Assembly: GCF_037042905.1 (NCBI RefSeq)
Contig: NC_087251.1
Location: forward strand, 3,846,001-3,906,000
Length of the DNA stretch: 60,000 nucleotides
Direction of reading: 5' to 3'
From: Lytechinus pictus
Lineage: Eukaryota
Position numbers and translations under genes: made by a program. Below are positions 1 to 8,961 of this stretch, piece after piece. The notes under the pieces are model-generated. The model searched no databases, was not told where the DNA came from, and worked only from the letters and a program-made list of their open reading frames with translations. Within the stretch, counting starts at the first letter, position 1. Each line of letters begins with the position of its first letter.

Positions 1-190
1 TTGGTCAGCTCCGCGGTACCATGCATGCATTTTTTAACTACTACTATTACAGCCATACCATATACCATTTACTTCTTTGATTTGCGACATTTGCTCAGCG
101 GAACGTTGTTATACTACCTCTTCATCAATACTTTGTGCAGAAATTCATTATTTTGCTACTTTTGGCTTGACTTTTACTCCCTTCACCACC

Positions 191-974
191 ATGTCAACGC
201 GTACTACACGTGCTAGTACTAGCGCCTCGGACAAGGTCGCTCAACCCGAGCCAACGCCCAACAGTATCGCCGAACTGAAGGCCGACATAAAAACGCTATC
301 CGAGGTGTTATGTCAGAAGATAGATGAGTTACGCAACGACACTGCAACCATGCACCGCAAAATATCTGACCTAGAAACCGCTATGACGGCTACGAGTGAA
401 CGGACTTGCCATCTAGAGACCGTCCAACTTCCAAAACTACGTGAGGACCACAAAGCCGACATGTCAGCCATAGAGAAGAAACTGATTCTCCTCGAGCTCT
501 ACCAGAGAAAGGCTAATCTCCTTTTCTATGGGGTCCCCCATAACAGAGATGAAAACGTCTATGAGAAGCTCCGCAACGTCTTCGTTAATCTTGGTCTATC
601 AGTGGAGGATGCAAATGCCATATCCATTGCAAATGCACATCGGTTACCCCGCAAGTCGCAAGCTGGAGCAGCCGCCCCTCCCCCTGGTCCTGAGCCTATC
701 ATAGCGAAATTCGTTATTTTTAGTGATCGTCAGCGTATCCTAGAAGCCTACGAGCATCAGCAACGCGTACCTCATAGCGATGCAAATAATATTAGCAGAA
801 TCTCGGTGAGAACCGATCTTCCACCAATCATGAAAGCTCGCAGAGCTAAGCTCGCTACGGTAGCATATGAGAAAGCAGAAAAATCTATCAACCAAGATAT
901 TTGTCAAGGATACCAATGTTATTCTTCAATTCAAGACCAAGGGCACCAGTGAATGGAAGACCTACCATGACTAA
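191..974 (+). pseudogene. LINE ORF1 (coiled-coil + RRM, L1-ORF1/transposase_22-like), frameshifted near 865
   Basis: ATG at 191 in CACCATG context; heptad coiled coil; motifs RKANLLFYGV, AHRL, PIIAKF, SVRTDLP. The natural-looking C-terminus MRKQKNLSTKIFVKDTNVILQFKTKGTSEWKTYHD* (TAA 972-974) is in another frame. Confidence 0.8.
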
Positions 975-1593
975 CATCCCTGTCCTGAAAATAAAAGGTA
1001 TAACATAATGATGTACTATAGTAAAGTTTCATGATCTAATTGATTTCAACATTTCATAATACTATACTCCAAGATGATGTCTTACTACTAAACTCCTTTA
1101 CCTATAAATTATGGTATCATAAATAAATAAATAACGGTATAATGAGGAAAAACTGACAACTTTTATTTGTAGTTGAGAGATGAATAAAACTGCAGCCTTT
1201 TCAGTTCAAATGTTAGAAGAGAACGGAACAACACTAGAATAGGTCTTCAAATTGTTATTTAGTTTTTTACTTGACCTATTGCCATAAATAATGTAATGAG
1301 CTAAACTTACAATGATATGGATATCTTATTCATAGATTAAAGACTGCAGTTTCTTCACATCCAGTGTCTTTTTACTGCATGATAACTCTAAATATTATAT
1401 TATAGATCTTGAAGCAATTTTATGTAACCTGGCAATTGAATTACGAATTACTTGTCATTTTTTCTTAACTTACACTTGATATTTTTAATATCATGTCTTT
1501 ATTGAGAGTATTGCCTCCATATTTAATGTCTCTGCTGGAGAACGAGAATACATTAAAAAGGTTTGACAACCTTTTTATACTCTATATATCTAT

Positions 1594-1814
1594 AACAGAG
1601 TATGGGGTGTTCTGGAGAGGTGGAGTGAAGCAGGTTTTCTTCAAATCATCATATCTCTAGGGGGGAAATGAAATTTAGATCTACAAGATAATAAATCCTA
1701 AACTTTTCCATGATTTTTTAAGATTTTCCCCAAATCTTAGGGGTCCCCATTTTCCCCCAGTTTCTCAAGAAAACCTGTTTCACTTTGTTTTCCCGGATCA
1801 CTTTATGCTCTGTT
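1594..1814 (+). ncRNA. Structured RNA domain, copy 1 (48-bp G-U-rich stem plus inner stems)
   Basis: 1594-1641 pairs gaplessly with 1814-1767: 34 Watson-Crick, 12 G-U, 2 mismatches. Inner stem 1657-1670/1748-1760; hairpin TAAGATTT-tcccc-AAATCTTA near 1719-1739. Confidence 0.7.
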
Positions 1815-2308
1815 TTACTTGATCTACTAGCCATAAACAGATAAAATAACGGTATAATGAGAAAAAACTGACAACTTTTATTTGTAGTTGAGAGATGAAT
1901 AAAACTGCAGCCTTTTCAGTTCAAATGTTAGAAGAGAACGGAACAACACTAGAATAGGTCTTCAAATTGTTATTTAGTTTTTTACTTGACCTATTGCCAT
2001 AAATAATGTAATGAGCTAAACTTACAATGATATGGATATCTTATTCATAGATTAAAGACTGCAGTTTCTTCACATCCAGTGTCTTTTTACTGCATGATAA
2101 CTCTAAATATTATATTATAGATCTTGAAGCAATTTTATGTAACCTGGCAATTGAATTACGAATTACTTGTCATTTTTTCTCAACTTACACTTGATATTTT
2201 TAATATCATGTCTTTATTGAGAGTATTGCCTCCATATTTAATGTCTCTGCTGGAGAACGAGAATACATTAAAAAGGTTTGACAACCTTTTTATACTCTAT
2301 ATATCTAT

Positions 2309-2529
2309 AACAGAGTATGGGGTGTTCTGGAGAGGTGGAGTGAAGCAGGTTTTCTTCAAATCATCATATCTCTAGGGGGGAAATGAAATTTAGATCTACA
2401 AGATAATAAATCCTAAACTTTTCCATGATTTTTTAAGATTTTCCCCAAATCTTAGGGGTCCCCATTTTCCCCCAGTTTCTCAAGAAAACCTGTTTCACTT
2501 TGTTTTCCCGGATCACTTTATGCTCTGTT
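2309..2529 (+). ncRNA. Structured RNA domain, copy 2
   Basis: Same sequence as 1594-1814 shifted by 715 bp. Confidence 0.7.
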
Positions 2530-3607
2530 TTACTTGATCTACTAGCCATAAACAGATAAAATAACGGTATAATGAGGAAAAACTGACAACTTTTATTTGT
2601 AGTTGAGAGATGAATAAAACTGCAGCCTTTTCAGTTTAAATGTTTGAGAGGACGGAACAGCACTAGAATAGGTCTTCAAATTGTTATTCATTTATTTTTT
2701 TTTATTTTGTTATTGCATGACAGCTCAAAATATTATATTATAGATCTTGGAGCAATTTTATGTAATCTGGCAATTGAATTGCTTGTCATTTTTATTGTCA
2801 TTTTATTATATTATAGATCTTGGACCTCTCTCATTCAATTGATTCATGATTTAAAAAAAAGGCCTATACATTTTTATTAATATATTCAAGCGAAATCAAA
2901 CAGCAGTCTTTTAAAGTTCAAATGTATCCGAGAGAACATAATGATATTAAAAAAGGTCTAGAACTTAGTTGTATTATACGACATATTAACCTTAAAAAAA
3001 AATGTTGGCCTAAGGAAAAAAAAAAATGTCTTGATTTCTAGCCATAAAGTATGGTACCATGTCAAAAGGAATACGGTGTATTCATTATACGTATAGATTC
3101 AAGAAGAAACAAACTACTGTTTGTTGTTGTTTTTTGTTTTCCATTTTATATGTCTTTGCGTAAAGAACACGACTTAGCATTATAGTAAATGACTTTAAAA
3201 ATAAATAAATGAATACGTAATGTCTACTTTGTACGTGATCTTTCTAGTTATAAATCGTACTTTATCTTGTAATGGACATGTTTGCTAGGATATCCGAATT
3301 TTGTAGATGCTCAAGAGACATGAAATAATGTCATTTTGCCGCATATAGTTACCGTTGCCTGGCATTGTCCCTTCCATTCGCTGAGATGTCTATGCATAAC
3401 ATTTGACAAAATCATTCACAGGTTTTCTTAAATGTCTTGATGAAGATGTCTACTGCAGCTGTTAACACCCACATATTTTCTATTTGTGTCCAAGATATTC
3501 ATGAGCATTCCGCATGTCTTTGTACTGTATCAATTATTTTCGATCATAAGCTATTCAATCCTTTTCCATACATCATGTACATACATGTAGTATGTTGATG
3601 GGATGGC

Positions 3608-4202
3608 TTAAAGGGGAGTGAGACCTTTGGAATAGGTAGGCTTGTGTCGTGGCAGAGGGGTCGGGGAGGCGGATCGGCGGGGGTTTGGGAGGGGTCGGAC
3701 GGGCGGTGGGAGGGTTGTGGGCGTTTGAGTGTTGCGATCGCTGGTGCTGCGGGGGTCCTCGCATTGGCGATGTGGCGGGGATGTGTGGTGCCATATGTGA
3801 ACGGCTTTCCCTTTGATGGACTGTGGGGTGCCCCCGCGGGATGTCTCTTTTTGCTTTTTCTTGTGGTGATGTGGGCTCTTTGTCCATGATGTGTCCTTTG
3901 AGGGTCTGCATTGCATGCCCTCCTGTGGAGAAAATGCGTGGTCAACAGGTGGATGTGATGGGGGAGGCAATTTGGGTGAAATGTGTACTAATGTAATGGG
4001 GAGAGTTGTTCGCAGGTGGCATCGCGCATCTTTGTCGCGTTGCCCGTGTGGGGATCTCCGTGGCATTGGTGATCGCGGTATTCGGGTGCTCGTGGCTTTC
4101 TCATTGTTTGTCTGATTCTTCTCGGGCTTTCGTTGGTCTTTTTCTTTGATTTTTCTGTTTTCGCGCAAGCTATCTTGTTCTAAGGGTTACATTCTCCTTT
4201 AA
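3608..4202 (+). ncRNA. Giant G-U-rich RNA hairpin (205-bp gapless stem, 185-nt structured loop)
   Basis: Position i pairs with 7810-i for i=3608..3812: about 112 Watson-Crick, 85 G-U, 8 mismatches, no A-C, no gaps (hand count). Confidence 0.85.
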
Positions 4203-5013
4203 AGTGACAGGTGATGTGTGGAGTTCACATTCATATCTATGCTATTTACATGTACGGTAATTCATGTTTCTGGATTTTGAGTTCTTTTTGTATTACTTAT
4301 TTCTTTCCTGGGGTCTGGAGGCAAGATTATGCACAATGCCTGGCGATTACAAACTACAATTATACTTGGAATCTTATCGGTAAACATTAATTACTCCTCT
4401 ATCTTGCAGGCCTATATAGCGGGCTTCCAGGCTCCAGAAATGAATGGGTATGCGTATCATTTACAGATGAAAAAATCTAAAATCTAGTAACTTGAACTCA
4501 TGCATTGATACTTATTTACTTCACAATACTGGTGTATATTCCACTCAAGTTTATATTTTTGTGTTGTTTTGTTTTGACAATTCCCTTAAATAATATTAGT
4601 TCCTATGATAACCATTGATTTTCTACAAATGAACGACACTGTCGTAACTCCCATGCTGTAAAACTTTCCACCAATTATCTTTTCTCAAAATTTGGAACTT
4701 AGCGGTAGCTGGACCACCCCTCATCAGTATATTGATTCAACCAATATCATGCGTTCCATTGTCATTTTTGGATTACGCGTTTCAGCCATTTTTTGTATTT
4801 TAGGCTATGGGTATTTCCCTTTGAACACCTTCTATTCAGTTACAATCTCCATTTTATATACAGATCAAACCAATCTTAACAACACATGTACTAGTTTGCT
4901 TTTCATAGTTTTTCATGTACTATTATTATTCACATCTGCCGTGCGCCTTGGAATTCCTTCGGTATATTTTACCCGCCCTGCTCTCACGCAATTTGTGTTA
5001 ACACATACATTTT

Positions 5014-8000
5014 ATGACGAGTGGCCTTAATACATTTCATTCTGCGCCTGAACTAGCAACTATTGTTCAGAGAACTGCCGGATCCTTGCCATCAAATTCT
5101 TCGCTGTCTAATTCTGAATCTTTTCAGAACCTTCAGTCAACTGAAGCATATCCTAACCCCCAAACTACTGAACTTAGTCTCGATTTCGAATCAACAACCG
5201 TAGAGGGTAACAACCCTTACTCTGACTACTTTTCTGAGCAAATGTTTTTCTCCAATTTAAATACACACAATGATAAAAATATAATACTTTTACAATATAA
5301 CATTCGGAGTCTCAATAGAAACTTCGACCAATTAGAAGCATTTGCTAAACAACTAAAATATCAGTGGTCAGTGATCGGCATTGCAGAAACATGGCTCAAA
5401 CACACTCCCTCCTCGCTTTATAATATAGAAGGATTTACCTTTGTCTCTAATAATAGAACTGAGAAACGAGGTGGCGGTGTGGGAATGTATATTCCCGACG
5501 GGTTTGATTTTACAATAAACGACGAACTAACCATTATATCAAATACTATAGAAACTATCTTTGTCGAATTACACTCTCCTCATAAAAAGAATATAATCAT
5601 AGGTGAAATCTATAGACCCCCAAATACAAATCCTAAAGATTTTATTGAAACATTACAGTCATTATTATCAGCACAAATACTGAATAATCAAACATGCATT
5701 ATTATGGGAGACTTTAACTTTGACTTACTCCGATGTGACCAAAACACTGATAGTCATGACTTTCTTAACTTAATGCTATCTAAACATTTCTTTCCAGCGA
5801 TTACCAAATCAACCAGGATAACCGATACATCAGCTACATTGATTGACAATATTTTTGTTGGAGGAACTTCAATTTTCAAGTCAGGAATTATAGTTAGTGA
5901 TATCTCAGACCACTTCCCCATCTTTACATTGATACCTAATACTATTCTTAATCCAAAGCCTAAAACAAAAAACAATATAGGATCACGTGATCTGTCACTA
6001 TACAACATCAACCGCTTAAAAAATGAACTCGATACAGTTGATTGGACTGCAATCTATCACTGCACTGATACTAACATCGCATTCGAACAATTCATAGAAA
6101 TAATTATGCATCACTTTAACTCTTGTATCCCAATTCGAAAAAAACATTCAAATTATAAAAAACGCCCAAGGCGTCCATGGATATCCAAGGCTTTATTAAA
6201 GTGCATCAATAAAAAAAACAATCTATTTTATAAATATAAAAACAATCTATTTTATAAATATAAAAACAACCCTACTTCTTTGAATAAATCCAAGTATTCT
6301 TCTTACCGTAATATATTAACATCTTCGTTAAGGCTTGCTAAGAAGAACTTTTATTCGAAAGAATTCATTAAACACAAGGACGACATTAAAAGTACATGGA
6401 ATACAATAAACGATATTCTGAAAAGGAAAAAGATATCCAACCAAATACCAAAAATCTGCATAAATAACAATGACATTCTAAATCCCCTCGAAATTGTTGA
6501 GGAATTTAATAACTATTTCGTTAACATTGGCCCTAATCTTGCCCATAACATTCCCTCAACTGACATAGACTTTAAATACTTTTTAAAATCCCCGAATCCA
6601 AATTCTTTATTCTTTACCCCAATCTTAGAACATGAAGTTATCGACATTGTTAATAATCTAAAACAAAATAAAAGCCCAGGATATGATGGTATAACAAATC
6701 GTGTATTAAAAGAGATCATACCATACATTATTGCACCCCTGACACATATCTTGAATCTATCCATTACAAATGGTATCGTTCCACAGAAAATGAAAATCGC
6801 CAAAGTCATACCAATACTAAAGAAAGGTGCCTCTGATCATCTTGGTAATTATCGTCCTATTTCTCTTTTGACCTCCCTCTCTAAAATTCTCGAAAAACTA
6901 GTATATTCACGTACAATGAAATTTTTAATATATCATAATATCTTATCTAATAATCAATTTGGCTTCAGACAGAAACACTCCACAACTCATGCATTACTTG
7001 TTTTCTTAGATAAGATAGCCCATGCCATAGATAACATGTCTCACACTGTTGGAATTTTCCTTGACTTCTCCAAGGCCTTTGATACTATCAATCATAATAT
7101 TTTACTGCATAAATTATCCCATTATGGGATTCGAGGAAAGGCCTTGGAGTGGTTTGGAAATTATCTTTCCGACAGAAAACAATTCGTTAGTATTAATGGA
7201 CAGGACTCTTACCCGAGATTAGTATCATGTGGTGTTCCACAAGGTTCCTTATTAGGCCCCCTATTGTTTATTTTGTATATTAATGATTTTCAACATTCAT
7301 CTGATAATTTGTCGTTTATTCTTTTTGCAGACGATTCTAATATTTTTTTCTCCCACCGTAACCCCACCAGCCTCCTTGAAATCCTGAACGAGGAATTGAA
7401 AATGGTCCAAGCCTGGATTAATGCAAATAAGCTATCTTTAAATGTTAACAAAACTCATTATATGTTGTTCAGTAATACTATCAAATCTTTACCCGGTGAT
7501 ATATTGATTGCTAACACAAATTTAACTAAAGTCGATTCCACAAAATTTCTTGGAATTTATATCGATAGCAAACTATCGTGGGAATCACATATTAATTATC
7601 TTTGTACATTAACGGCTAGAAACACAGGCATTTTAAACAAACTTAAACATGATCTACCCCAAAAAATTTTATTATCTCTTTACAATACTTTGATTTTGCC
7701 CTATCTCAATTACGGTATTCTTGCTTGGGGTAATAGCAATAAAACTCAACTACATAGGTTGTTTGTCATTCAAAAACGTGCGGTTAGAAACATAAACAAT
7801 GCTGGTTTTCTTTCCCATACAAGTCGTTACTTTCATGGAAATCAACTTCTCAAAATCTCAGACTTATATAGATATAATTTAGGAATTTTTATGTTCCAGC
7901 TATCCACAAATGAATTACCAGCCATTGTCACCTTATTATTTGTTAAACGAAATGTAATTCATTCATACGCAACTCGACAAAGTACATTTTATCATTTACC

Positions 8001-8169
8001 ACTGACTCGAACAACCTTTGCTCAGAAAACAATTACTTTCTCAGGACCGAAGTACTGGAATGGACTATCCAAAGACATTTCAGACTCCAATTCATTGTTT
8101 ATATTCAAACGTAAACTTAAACATACTTTTTTGAATGATTATGCAGTTCAGGCAGCAGTAGATATCTAA
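5014..8169 (+). CDS. LINE ORF2: apurinic endonuclease + reverse transcriptase, 1051 aa, intact
   Basis: APE motifs YNIRSL, IAETW, IYRPP, MGDFN, TLIDNIF, SDHFP; RT motifs NYRPISLL, QFGFR, FLDFSKAFDT, GVPQGSLLGP, LFADD. Confidence 0.97.
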   Translation: MTSGLNTFHSAPELATIVQRTAGSLPSNSSLSNSESFQNLQSTEAYPNPQTTELSLDFESTTVEGNNPYSDYFSEQMFFSNLNTHNDKNIILLQYNIRSLNRNFDQLEAFAKQLKYQWSVIGIAETWLKHTPSSLYNIEGFTFVSNNRTEKRGGGVGMYIPDGFDFTINDELTIISNTIETIFVELHSPHKKNIIIGEIYRPPNTNPKDFIETLQSLLSAQILNNQTCIIMGDFNFDLLRCDQNTDSHDFLNLMLSKHFFPAITKSTRITDTSATLIDNIFVGGTSIFKSGIIVSDISDHFPIFTLIPNTILNPKPKTKNNIGSRDLSLYNINRLKNELDTVDWTAIYHCTDTNIAFEQFIEIIMHHFNSCIPIRKKHSNYKKRPRRPWISKALLKCINKKNNLFYKYKNNLFYKYKNNPTSLNKSKYSSYRNILTSSLRLAKKNFYSKEFIKHKDDIKSTWNTINDILKRKKISNQIPKICINNNDILNPLEIVEEFNNYFVNIGPNLAHNIPSTDIDFKYFLKSPNPNSLFFTPILEHEVIDIVNNLKQNKSPGYDGITNRVLKEIIPYIIAPLTHILNLSITNGIVPQKMKIAKVIPILKKGASDHLGNYRPISLLTSLSKILEKLVYSRTMKFLIYHNILSNNQFGFRQKHSTTHALLVFLDKIAHAIDNMSHTVGIFLDFSKAFDTINHNILLHKLSHYGIRGKALEWFGNYLSDRKQFVSINGQDSYPRLVSCGVPQGSLLGPLLFILYINDFQHSSDNLSFILFADDSNIFFSHRNPTSLLEILNEELKMVQAWINANKLSLNVNKTHYMLFSNTIKSLPGDILIANTNLTKVDSTKFLGIYIDSKLSWESHINYLCTLTARNTGILNKLKHDLPQKILLSLYNTLILPYLNYGILAWGNSNKTQLHRLFVIQKRAVRNINNAGFLSHTSRYFHGNQLLKISDLYRYNLGIFMFQLSTNELPAIVTLLFVKRNVIHSYATRQSTFYHLPLTRTTFAQKTITFSGPKYWNGLSKDISDSNSLFIFKRKLKHTFLNDYAVQAAVDI

Positions 8170-8338
8170 ACCTTTCAGCAGCTCCATTTTACCTTCATAC
8201 CTCCCTTTAAAACATTACTTTCTTTCCAGGGCGTGCCACAGATGTGATTAAACCAATTGGTACATAAACTTTTGCTTTTCTTTTACCTTGTTATTTTTAA
8301 TAGCTATATAGCCTTATGTCTTATCACCTCCTTCCATT

Positions 8339-8379
8339 GGGGCCTATAACTCACAAGCTCTGCTTTCAACTTAGGCCCC
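8339..8379 (+). other. LINE 3' UTR stem-loop (putative RT recognition element)
   Basis: GGGGCCTA (8339-8346) pairs with TAGGCCCC (8372-8379) and encloses AAGC-tct-GCTT. Confidence 0.55.
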
Positions 8380-8961
8380 TCCATTTTTCACTGATTTAAA
8401 TTCTTATTGCGTATAACTTCTGTCTCAATAACGATTTATTTCAACTCAATATAATTATGTTATACTCATGTCAAGCATGTTAATGTCTGTATATGAATAA
8501 TGGAAATAAACTAAACTGAAACTGAAAACTGAAACTGAAGTCAGTTGTAGAAAGCCTGTCACATAAATGGGAGATCATCGGTTAGATAACCACCAGAGTC
8601 ACACCAAAGACTACCATGGGTAAATAAGAGTTTCATGGTTAATCAACGGTGGTATAATAAGCCAAACATTTTGAAAGCACCAGGGCAAAAATATCTTATT
8701 TTTTGGTTATGGTCATGATTTATTTTATTTTATTTTATTTATCTTCATTTATTTTTTTAAATTTTTTTTGGAGGGGTCATCAATATCATCATCATCATCA
8801 TCACCATCATTATTATTACTGCTGTTATCATAATCATCATCATTCTCAATATTATTACAACCTTGAGAAACTTTTGTATAGTATATTGCATATAACAGCA
8901 AGAAAGTTGGACTCATATAAACACTCTGTTGAAAAAAATAAATGTGGTGAATTTTACTTAC

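What the first reader, a model, noticed from the sequence alone, without database searches (positions are those of the whole stretch)
3608..4202. Hidden 205-bp gapless RNA hairpin with about 41% G-U pairs between LINE ORF1 and ORF2
Seen: base i pairs with base 7810-i from 3608 to 3812 with no indel. My hand count is about 112 Watson-Crick, 85 G-U, 8 mismatches and zero A-C, and both arms are strongly A-depleted. Neutral decay of a DNA palindrome would give G-T and A-C equally plus indels, so the structure is specific to the + (element sense) RNA. At about 55% Watson-Crick identity it would probably be missed by DNA inverted-repeat finders. Inference: it is either (a) ADAR A-to-I hyper-editing fixed over rounds of reverse transcription, or (b) selection for a long RNA helix that avoids DNA cruciforms or recombination and perhaps dsRNA sensing or Dicer. 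Possible roles include a decoy for ADAR/RNAi/dsRNA sensors, ribosome shunting to ORF2, or an RNP scaffold. I do not know of such a structure described in a LINE.
Basis: partly seen in the sequence, partly recalled or inferred. Interest (0 to 1): 0.92.

Follow-up and report, generated by a model that had tools for sequence, protein, structure and literature searches.

The report
ADAR-edited transposon hairpin fossilised in LINE
The hidden hairpin is a small inverted-repeat DNA transposon that landed inside a LINE retrotransposon, had about 60% of its adenosines changed to guanosine on the LINE's sense strand, most likely by ADAR editing of the RNA, and was written back into the genome by reverse transcription.

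Summary
Base i pairs with 7810-i over 205 positions: 112 Watson-Crick, 85 G-U, 8 mismatches, 0 A-C. The + strand RNA folds at -349 kcal/mol (z -24.6); the - strand at -112.8 (z -1.5).

It is not an intrinsic LINE structure. It is a 587-bp inverted-repeat MITE (3612-4198) flanked by a TTAA duplication, from a family with about 2,500 first-look matches in this genome. Four of four older LINE copies have the empty TTAA site.

Against the majority of 26 family copies, the window copy has 116 A>G of 194 ancestral A, 6 T>C of 196 T and 22 other substitutions. The LINE flanks show 7 A>G of 410 A. A 5' G is disfavoured, and the genome encodes an ADAR.

Three 5'-truncated daughter LINE copies, about 99% identical, carry the same edited sequence. 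A second, independent edited copy lies in the same position in a different LINE family.

Reading (a), ADAR hyper-editing fixed by reverse transcription, is strongly supported. Selection for the helix is not needed. This is a clear natural case of a known mechanism.

The parts
38..952 (+). ORF1-like reading frame of the host LINE (304 aa stop to stop).
   Evidence: It has no Pfam hit. It is 30% identical (E 1e-30) to the ORF that lies upstream of APE/RT in the second LINE locus on C62. A 94% identical copy lies upstream of the older LINE copy on C14, on the same strand and about 6.8 kb from it.
1118..2700 (+). Internally repeated part of the long ORF1-ORF2 spacer.
   Evidence: Window 1118-1462, 1650-2177 and 2365-2697 all map onto the same stretch of older copies L051 and L053. 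The period is beyond Tandem Repeats Finder's 500-nt limit, so it is not listed.
3608..3611 (.). Left TTAA target-site duplication of the MITE.
   Evidence: Four of four older LINE copies read GGC-TTAA-AGTGACAGG with a single TTAA.
3612..3812 (+). Left arm (terminal inverted repeat) of the MITE, hyper-edited.
   Evidence: In the left third 3607-3812, 52 of 80 ancestral A are now G and 3 of 50 T are now C. It pairs without gaps with the right arm.
3813..3997 (+). Middle segment of the MITE (the loop of the hairpin), also hyper-edited.
   Evidence: 37 of 65 ancestral A are now G and 2 of 64 T are now C. Both predicted-paired A (18 of 29) and predicted-unpaired A (19 of 35) are edited.
3998..4198 (+). 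Right arm (terminal inverted repeat) of the MITE, hyper-edited.
   Evidence: In the right third 3998-4203, 27 of 49 ancestral A are now G and 1 of 82 T is now C.
4199..4202 (.). Right TTAA target-site duplication.
   Evidence: In the aligned rows, TTAA flanks the 5' end in 23 of 28 and the 3' end in 25 of 28; some of the misses are failures of my string search.
5002..8169 (+). LINE ORF2, an uninterrupted 1055-aa frame with endonuclease and reverse transcriptase domains.
   Evidence: Pfam Exo_endo_phos E 4.6e-10 and RVT_1 E 3.4e-40.
8513..8539 (+). 3' tail of the LINE, an (AAACT/AAACTG)n repeat.
   Evidence: The tail's length and composition differ among the window copy and the three daughter copies. 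Similarity to all copies ends at 8522-8533.

Best explanation
Proposed sequence of events:
1. A 587-bp non-autonomous DNA transposon (MITE) inserted at a TTAA in the spacer between ORF1 and ORF2 of a LINE. It has about 200-bp terminal inverted repeats and duplicates TTAA on insertion.
2. Every sense transcript of that LINE copy then carried a near-perfect 205-bp RNA duplex.
3. The host's ADAR deaminated about 60% of the adenosines of that RNA segment to inosine.
4. The LINE reverse transcriptase read inosine as G, and the new insertion fixed A>G in DNA on the sense strand only.

Each A-U pair hit by editing becomes G-U. The RNA helix therefore survives at about the same stability, while the DNA palindrome drops to 55% complementarity.

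The edited copy stayed retrotransposition-competent and gave rise to the young subfamily seen today. Each further round added about one more A>G inside the hairpin.

Shown here: the insertion, the polarity, extent and context of the changes, inheritance by daughter copies, and the presence of an ADAR gene.

Inferred: that ADAR was the enzyme, that the change passed through RNA, and how many rounds were involved.

On this reading the G-U-rich helix is a by-product and a fossil. It is not a selected device.
For: 1. Polarity. Against the majority of 26 family copies there are 116 A>G of 194 A, 6 T>C of 196 T, 6 C>T, 1 G>A, 22 non-A>G substitutions in all, and 6 indel columns. The 26 ordinary copies each have 1-8 A>G.

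2. Origin of the G-U pairs. Of the 85 G-U pairs, 73 come from an ancestral Watson-Crick pair by A>G, 4 by C>T, 1 by C>G at an ancestral mismatch, and 7 were already G-U. Both ancestral A-C mismatches became G-C by A>G. The family majority pairs 190 Watson-Crick of 205 in the same gapless register.

3. Boundaries. LINE flanks in the same transcript show A>G at 5 of 268 A on the left and 2 of 142 A on the right.

4. Enzyme signature. The edited fraction of A is 32% after a 5' G (13 of 41), against 75% after A, 73% after T and 63% after C (chi-square p = 5e-5). The independent C62 copy shows the same trend: 20% after G against 46-52% (p = 0.011). Depletion of 5' G is the published ADAR motif (PMC2873906, passages read).

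5. Enzyme present. A C3 locus has two dsrm domains and A_deamin in one 554-aa frame. Three further A_deamin loci exist.

6. RNA intermediate. Three copies about 99% identical begin at window 3911, 3947 and 4138. They run to the 3' tail, have different flanks and different tail lengths, and carry the same edited sequence.

7. Nested insertion. Four of four older LINE copies (88-94% identical) have the empty TTAA site.

8. Recurrence. A copy on C62 has 78 A>G. It sits on the sense strand between an ORF1 homologue and APE/RT ORFs of a different LINE family. Other copies of that LINE lack the MITE. It shares only 2 non-A>G substitutions with the window copy, against 21 private to the window and 39 private to C62.

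9. Continuing editing. Private A>G changes among the young copies number 3 of 126 A-opportunities inside the MITE, against 2 of 5723 outside (Fisher p = 9.5e-5).

10. Precedent. In retroviruses with an inverted repeat, nearly 50% of A were replaced by G (review PMC12925331, passage read).
Against: - No RNA evidence for this copy. In three rRNA-depleted RNA-seq runs, each sampled at about 6%, no read lay on the LINE flanks. Reads on the MITE were partial matches from unedited relatives. Inosine in this transcript has therefore not been seen.
- No LINE copy with an unedited MITE at this site was found. All 6 left-flank candidates in the assembly were scored, so the intermediate is missing.
- The middle 185 nt, largely unpaired in an intramolecular fold, is edited as heavily as the arms: 19 of 35 predicted-unpaired A. 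A simple hairpin does not fully explain this.
- The 3' neighbour preference is not significant (p = 0.18).
- Target-site duplications of the daughter LINE copies were not clear.
- Only 40 of about 2,470 first-look MITE candidates were scored. The rarity of edited copies is therefore not established.
Confidence: 0.87

Rival explanations
1. Same enzyme and same route, but a different substrate. The dsRNA that ADAR edited was mainly an intermolecular duplex between the MITE segment of the LINE RNA and antisense transcripts of other MITE copies, not the intramolecular hairpin.
For: The middle segment is edited as heavily as the arms in the window copy (37 of 65 against 79 of 129). That includes A predicted unpaired in the hairpin fold (19 of 35). 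Editing stops at the MITE ends, which an antisense MITE RNA would also predict. Family-derived RNA-seq reads lie in both directions (table 2).
Against: In the independent C62 copy the arms are edited more than the middle (60 of 125 against 18 of 61), as a hairpin substrate predicts. A 190-of-205 intramolecular duplex should outcompete partners in trans. The RNA-seq reads are partial matches of unknown origin, so they are weak evidence. Several rounds of editing, or alternative folds of the middle segment, could give the same pattern.
Confidence: 0.25
2. The G-U-rich helix was shaped or retained by selection on the LINE RNA, which is the reader's option (b). Proposed benefits are a long helix that escapes DNA cruciform formation, Dicer or dsRNA sensors, or that serves ORF2 translation or RNP assembly.
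For: All 4 young copies that reach the site carry the edited hairpin, and the MITE-bearing lineage is the one that recently multiplied (at least 17 copies at 97% identity or more at the 3' end). RNA stability is unchanged by the editing: -352 kcal/mol for the family majority against -349 now. No indel has broken the register.
Against: A-U to G-U keeps pairing automatically, so the preserved helix needs no selection. Only 3 of 205 pairs changed on both sides. A>G is just as frequent where there is nothing to pair with and follows the ADAR neighbour rule. The young copies are about 99% identical, too young for purifying selection to be visible. Four of five 5' truncation points fall in or next to the hairpin, which suggests a cost rather than a benefit.
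Confidence: 0.06
3. A DNA-level, strand-asymmetric mutational process made the A>G changes without an RNA intermediate. Candidates are transcription-coupled mutation, error-prone polymerase synthesis on a DNA hairpin, or a DNA deaminase.
For: The palindrome could extrude as a DNA hairpin. A>G with a preference for A or T at the 5' side is also a feature of some error-prone polymerases (recalled, not tested here).
Against: Sixty per cent of A changed, almost only to G (116 A>G against 2 A>C and 2 A>T). The borders at the MITE ends are sharp within one transcription unit (7 of 410 flank A). None of the 26 other family copies aligned shows it, although they carry the same palindrome. Both edited loci found lie in the sense strand of LINEs.
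Confidence: 0.03
4. The G-U pairs arose from G-C pairs by C>T deamination on the + strand (APOBEC-like, RIP-like or methyl-CpG decay).
For: C>T on one strand would also turn Watson-Crick pairs into G-U pairs without producing A-C.
Against: Polarisation against the family majority shows only 6 C>T in the element, and 4 of the 85 G-U pairs come from C>T, against 73 from A>G. The composition shows loss of A and gain of G, with C and T unchanged.
Confidence: 0.01

Closest known systems
ADAR hyper-editing of an inverted repeat in retroviral RNA, fixed in proviral DNA (Hajjar & Linial 1995; Felder et al. 1994). I know these only through the review PMC12925331, passage read; the originals are not held.
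   Same: A long intramolecular duplex in a retroelement RNA, about half of the adenosines replaced by G on the sense strand, and passage through reverse transcription into DNA.
   Different: Those were avian retroviruses or vectors observed over a few replication cycles. Here the host is a non-LTR LINE in a chromosome. The duplex was supplied by a nested DNA-transposon MITE. The edited copy became the founder of a subfamily, and a second LINE family shows the same event independently.
A-to-G clusters in mammalian retrotransposon copies attributed to ADAR plus retrotransposition (Knisbacher & Levanon 2015, Ann N Y Acad Sci 1341:115). I saw only the title in reference lists. The paper is not held, so its content is recalled.
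   Same: The same idea: RNA editing of a retroelement transcript becomes heritable when the transcript is reverse transcribed and inserted.
   Different: I could not read its data. Here the ancestral state, the empty site, the daughter copies and the duplex partner are all identified for a single locus.
APOBEC G-to-A hypermutated retroelements in vertebrate genomes (PMC4866542, passages; PMC2873906, passages).
   Same: A host deaminase leaves a clustered, strand-specific, context-dependent mutation footprint that is fossilised on integration of a retroelement.
   Different: That is a different enzyme family acting on single-stranded cDNA (C>U, read as G>A on the sense strand), with no need for dsRNA. 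Here the change is A>G on the sense strand and is confined to a duplex-forming segment.
ADAR editing of transposon-derived inverted repeats in transcripts, such as inverted Alu pairs and Xenopus palindromic regions (PMC2873906, passages).
   Same: The same substrate class (TE-derived long dsRNA) and the same depletion of 5' G.
   Different: Those edits exist only in RNA and are not inherited. Here they are in the genome.

Membership tests
ADAR hyper-editing footprint | A>G predominates and is confined to one strand. | tested here: met
   116 A>G of 194 A, against 6 T>C of 196 T and 22 non-A>G substitutions in all.
ADAR hyper-editing footprint | The substrate can form long dsRNA. | tested here: met
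   The family majority pairs 190 Watson-Crick of 205 without gaps. Its RNA MFE is -352 kcal/mol.
ADAR hyper-editing footprint | Editing is confined to the duplex-forming segment. | tested here: met
   Flank A>G is 5 of 268 and 2 of 142. Caveat: the middle 185 nt inside the element is edited too (37 of 65).
ADAR hyper-editing footprint | G is disfavoured at the 5' neighbour of edited A. | tested here: met
   Edited fraction 13 of 41 after G, against 53 of 71 after A, 24 of 33 after T and 26 of 41 after C, p = 5e-5. The C62 copy gives p = 0.011.
ADAR hyper-editing footprint | 3' neighbour preference (G favoured; this rule is recalled). | tested here: inconclusive
   Edited fraction 70% before G, 70% before C, 66% before A and 52% before T, p = 0.18.
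ADAR hyper-editing footprint | The host encodes an ADAR (dsRNA-binding motifs plus a deaminase domain). | tested here: met
   The C3:52.51 Mb frame has 2 dsrm and A_deamin. There are four A_deamin loci in all.
ADAR hyper-editing footprint | Inosine, or A-to-G mismatches, seen in the RNA of this locus. | tested here: inconclusive
   No RNA-seq read lies on the LINE flanks in the sampled fraction. Reads on the MITE come from other copies.
Non-LTR (LINE) retrotransposon | ORF2 with an AP-like endonuclease and a reverse transcriptase. | tested here: met
   Exo_endo_phos and RVT_1 in a 1055-aa open frame.
Non-LTR (LINE) retrotransposon | 5'-truncated copies that share the 3' end. | tested here: met
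   Young copies start at 3911, 3947, 4138, 4230 and 4456, and many more are truncated further 3'.
Non-LTR (LINE) retrotransposon | A 3' tail of simple repeats that varies between copies. | tested here: met
   (AAACT/AAACTG)n differs in each of four copies.
Non-LTR (LINE) retrotransposon | Target-site duplications flanking the copies. | tested here: inconclusive
   Only 6-8-nt shared words were found, and they are not adjacent to the junctions.
piggyBac-type (TTAA) MITE | Insertion at TTAA with duplication of TTAA. | tested here: met
   The empty site has one TTAA in 4 of 4 older LINE copies and the filled site has two. TTAA lies at the 5' end in 23 of 28 aligned rows and at the 3' end in 25 of 28.
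piggyBac-type (TTAA) MITE | Terminal inverted repeats, small size, many copies, no transposase gene. | tested here: met
   About 200-bp inverted repeats, a 587-593-bp unit, and about 2,470 first-look candidates of which 40 were scored. The only long frames are on the T-poor - strand of the edited copy.
piggyBac-type (TTAA) MITE | Termini shared with an autonomous piggyBac element of the same genome. | not tested
   piggyBac-type transposase genes are present: 59 matches to PF13843, of which 13 cover almost the whole domain inside an unbroken frame of 544 aa or more. Their ends were not compared with the MITE.

The most novel reading that the evidence does not exclude
ADAR editing followed by reverse transcription rescued the LINE. 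A perfect 205-bp hairpin would have made the transcript a target for Dicer or dsRNA sensing. One or a few editing rounds converted it into a G-U-rich helix that is invisible as a DNA palindrome and a poor substrate for those pathways. Only that edited lineage went on to found the currently active subfamily. The retained helix may now modulate the LINE's own cycle, for example by limiting full-length cDNA synthesis or by affecting access to ORF2. If this recurs (two LINE families here), it would be a general way in which host editing domesticates dsRNA-forming insertions inside retroelements, and a source of strand-specific RNA helices that DNA repeat finders miss.
Probability: 0.15. Interest if true: 0.8.

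Novelty: new member of a known kind. Interest (0 to 1): 0.55.

Why it matters
This locus preserves every stage except one. It has the empty site, the unedited source family, the edited insertion, its retrotransposed daughters and an independent replicate in another LINE family. Only the unedited MITE inside the LINE is missing.

That makes it an unusually complete natural record that RNA editing can be written back into an animal germline genome through a LINE.

It also gives an in vivo map of ADAR site choice on a 600-nt substrate: 116 edited and 70 unedited A, with 65 sites re-used in the independent event.

It shows that editing plus reverse transcription leaves an RNA helix intact while erasing the DNA palindrome. 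Scans for inverted repeats at the DNA level will therefore miss such structures.

The clustering of 5' truncation points in the hairpin suggests that such helices limit full-length LINE copying.

Tried and rejected
- **RNA evidence.** The run search listed no RNA holder. I laid three rRNA-depleted RNA-seq runs, about 6% of each, and one contig set on window 3300-4600 at 90% likeness or more. There was zero depth on the LINE flanks. The 164-226 reads per run on the MITE were almost all partial, 90-95% alike, and showed G>A at 32-35 places, so they come from unedited relatives. This says nothing about expression or editing of this copy.
- **Rfam.** No family matched 3300-4500 at E of 1 or less.
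- **Earlier notes of this scan.** None exist for this genome.
- **Unedited intermediate.** All 6 left-flank candidates in the assembly were scored. Four have the empty site, one is the window itself, and one (C3) carries a different MITE. No LINE copy with an unedited MITE was found.
- **Daughters of the C62 edited copy.** None appeared among the 40 of 2,493 candidates scored.
- **LINE target-site duplications.** Not clear.
- **Shared ancestry of the two edited copies.** Rejected, because they share only 2 non-A>G substitutions. The excess of shared A>G sites (65 shared, odds ratio 6.8) is therefore read as site preference.
- **C>T origin of the G-U pairs.** Rejected.
- **Genome-wide census.** Not possible.
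- **Papers.** Knisbacher & Levanon 2015 and Hajjar & Linial 1995 are not held. Searches for a MITE-in-LINE ADAR case listed none by title or abstract. One search call failed on term length.

Full report
**1. The observation.**
It gives 112 Watson-Crick pairs, 85 G-U pairs (57 with the G in the left arm, 28 with the G in the right arm), 8 mismatches, no A-C and no indel.

The arms have 12.7% and 10.2% A and 47.8% and 28.3% G. The flanks have 27-30% A and 16-17% G.

As RNA the + strand folds at -349 kcal/mol. Shuffles average -207.9 (sd 5.7), so z = -24.6, and 0 of 100 shuffles fold as well. The - strand folds at -112.8 kcal/mol, z = -1.46, with 9 of 100 shuffles as good.

The DNA inverted-repeat finder reported only the outer 37 nt, at 70% complementarity.

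**2. What the segment is.**
A search of the window's own 812-Mb genome with 3550-4260 gave 2,471 first-look candidates. Forty were scored. Most match window 3607-4203 end to end at 74-76% identity and also match their own opposite arm.

So 3608-4202 is one copy of an abundant element of about 590 bp with long terminal inverted repeats. The majority sequence of 26 copies pairs 190 Watson-Crick, 7 G-U, 6 mismatches and 2 A-C of 205 in the same gapless register.

Four of four older copies of the surrounding LINE (88-94% identical; two on C17, one on C9, one on C14) read GGC-TTAA-AGTGACAGG with nothing in between. The element proper is therefore 3612-4198, and TTAA is duplicated at 3608-3611 and 4199-4202.

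TTAA flanks the 5' end in 23 of 28 aligned rows and the 3' end in 25 of 28. Many intact piggyBac-type transposase genes are present in the genome. Duplication of TTAA as the piggyBac hallmark is recalled knowledge. I did not compare the termini with an autonomous element.

**3. The host element.**
- ORF2 (5002-8169) has endonuclease and reverse transcriptase domains.
- The 38-952 frame has no Pfam hit. It is 30% identical (E 1e-30) to a frame that sits in the same position upstream of APE/RT in a second LINE locus. A 94% identical copy lies upstream of the C14 LINE copy. 'Between ORF1 and ORF2' therefore stands.
- The spacer is about 4 kb long and contains an internally repeated part at 1118-2700.
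- Similarity to all other copies ends at 8522-8533, in an (AAACT/AAACTG)n tail that differs from copy to copy.

**4. Direction of the changes.**
Against the majority of the 26 copies the window copy has:
- 116 A>G of 194 ancestral A (60%)
- 6 T>C of 196 T
- 6 C>T and 1 G>A
- 22 non-A>G substitutions in all, and 6 indel columns

The rows dropped before this count were the window's own locus, the two partial daughters L002 and L004, and the second edited copy L003. The 26 ordinary copies have 1-8 A>G each.

By region, A>G is 52 of 80 in the left arm, 37 of 65 in the middle and 27 of 49 in the right arm.

Of the 85 G-U pairs, 73 come from a Watson-Crick pair by A>G, 4 by C>T, 1 by C>G at an ancestral mismatch, and 7 were already G-U. 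Both ancestral A-C mismatches became G-C. Only 3 pairs changed on both sides.

In the LINE flanks of the same transcript, polarised against sites where the older copies agree, A>G is 5 of 268 on the left and 2 of 142 on the right. The hypermutation stops at the ends of the element.

**5. Enzyme signature.**
The edited fraction of A by 5' neighbour is:

| 5' neighbour | Window copy | C62 copy |
|---|---|---|
| A | 53 of 71 (75%) | 33 of 71 (46%) |
| T | 24 of 33 (73%) | 16 of 31 (52%) |
| C | 26 of 41 (63%) | 21 of 41 (51%) |
| G | 13 of 41 (32%) | 8 of 40 (20%) |
| chi-square p | 5e-5 | 0.011 |

The 3' neighbour effect is not significant (p = 0.18). Depletion of 5' G is the published ADAR motif (PMC2873906, passages read).

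The genome has four loci with the A_deamin domain. One frame carries two dsRNA-binding motifs plus the deaminase domain.

**6. Passage through RNA.**
Three copies on C5, C2 and C10 are about 99% identical to the window from positions 3911, 3947 and 4138 to the 3' tail. They have unrelated upstream DNA and different tail lengths, and they carry the same edited sequence.

These are 5'-truncated retrocopies. The edited element was therefore part of the LINE RNA template, and the bulk of the editing predates their common ancestor.

Among the four young copies, private A>G changes at ancestral A occur at 4060 (window), 4072 (C5 copy) and 4183 (C10 copy). That is 3 of 126 A-opportunities inside the element, against 2 of 5723 outside (Fisher p = 9.5e-5). 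This fits a little further editing at each round.

**7. Recurrence.**
A copy on C62 has 78 A>G among its 127 differences from the majority. It lies on the sense strand between an ORF1 homologue and APE and RT frames of a LINE. That LINE's ORF2 is only 34% identical to the window's over the 320 aligned residues of its N-terminal part.

Other copies of that LINE on C21, C22 and C2 have the two flanks 5-41 bp apart, which leaves no room for the 600-bp element.

The two edited copies share 65 A>G sites, with 44 in the window only, 13 in C62 only and 60 in neither (odds ratio 6.8). They share only 2 non-A>G substitutions, against 21 private to the window and 39 private to C62. I read this as two independent events with the same site preferences.

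**8. Consequences.**
The family majority folds at -352 kcal/mol and the edited copy at -349. The RNA helix is as stable as before, while DNA complementarity fell to 112 of 205.

At least 17 young copies (97% identity or more) share the 3' end (40 of 97 candidates were scored). Six of them reach position 5100. Of those six, one is full length, and the others start at 4456, 4230, 4138, 3947 and 3911.

Four of the five truncation points fall within 3608-4232. The binomial probability is 1e-3 under a uniform spread over 5,100 nt, with the interval chosen after seeing the data. This suggests that the helix, or cleavage of it, limits full-length copying.

**9. What does not fit, or is missing.**
- The middle 185 nt is edited as heavily as the arms in the window copy, including 19 of 35 A predicted to be unpaired. 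Antisense RNA from other copies, several rounds of editing, or alternative folds may explain this. In the C62 copy the arms are edited more than the middle (60 of 125 against 18 of 61).
- No LINE copy with an unedited MITE exists in the assembly (all 6 candidates were scored).
- RNA-seq gave no reads on this LINE.
- Only a small part of the MITE family could be scored.

**10. Comparison with what is known.**
A review passage states that retroviral inverted repeats had nearly 50% of A replaced by G (PMC12925331, citing Hajjar & Linial 1995 and Felder et al. 1994; the former is not held, and I did not look up the latter).

The idea that edited retrotransposon RNA re-enters mammalian genomes is the subject of Knisbacher & Levanon 2015. 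I saw only its title in reference lists, the paper is not held, and its content is recalled.

APOBEC footprints in retroelements are the DNA-editing analogue (PMC4866542, PMC2873906; passages read).

Four full-text searches listed no paper whose title or abstract describes a MITE nested in a LINE as the source of an ADAR-edited, inherited hairpin. This is not proof that none exists.

**11. Verdict.**
Reading (a) is strongly supported. The structure is a fossil of ADAR editing of a nested MITE and was not selected as a LINE device. The mechanism is known. This case is unusually complete and occurred twice in this genome.

Noticed in passing
Window 3911-4232; copies at C5:3917386, C2:2144980, C10 (L056) and C15:21077634: Four of the five 5' truncation points of young LINE copies that reach position 5100 lie inside or within 30 nt of the hairpin (3911, 3947, 4138, 4230). 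The fifth is at 4456. The binomial p is 1e-3, with the interval chosen after the fact. The helix may block reverse transcription, or the RNA may be cut there.
   Followed up: partly
L057 (C62:89000-98999) 4370-4970: A second, independent hyper-edited copy of the same MITE (78 A>G). It lies on the sense strand between an ORF1 homologue (39-1052) and APE/RT frames (5889-6974, 7837-8838) of a different LINE family. Other copies of that LINE lack the MITE.
   Followed up: yes
L045 (C3:79822332-79822688), homologous to window 3608-3611: Another, more diverged copy of the host LINE carries a different inverted-repeat element of about 350 bp, inserted at the very same TTAA and again flanked by TTAA. 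This TTAA may be an insertion hotspot.
   Followed up: no
Window 1118-2700: Three stretches of the ORF1-ORF2 spacer (1118-1462, 1650-2177, 2365-2697) map onto one stretch of the older copies, so the spacer holds a long-period tandem repeat. A spacer of about 4 kb between LINE ORFs is unusually long. On C14 the ORF1 part lies a further 6.8 kb away.
   Followed up: partly
Window 6214-6269: A perfect 24-bp tandem repeat (2.3 copies) lies inside ORF2. Its copy number differs among the young LINE copies, by in-frame 24-nt gaps in L056, L059 and L060.
   Followed up: no
Window 3544-4186, - strand: Long open frames of 122-192 aa run on the - strand through the hairpin. They are a composition artefact: the + strand is A-poor, so the - strand is T-poor and has few stop codons.
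   Followed up: partly
L060 (C5) at window position 4919: The C5 daughter copy has about 635 bp of extra DNA inserted at window position 4919 (locus 5395 to 6031). I did not examine it.
   Followed up: no
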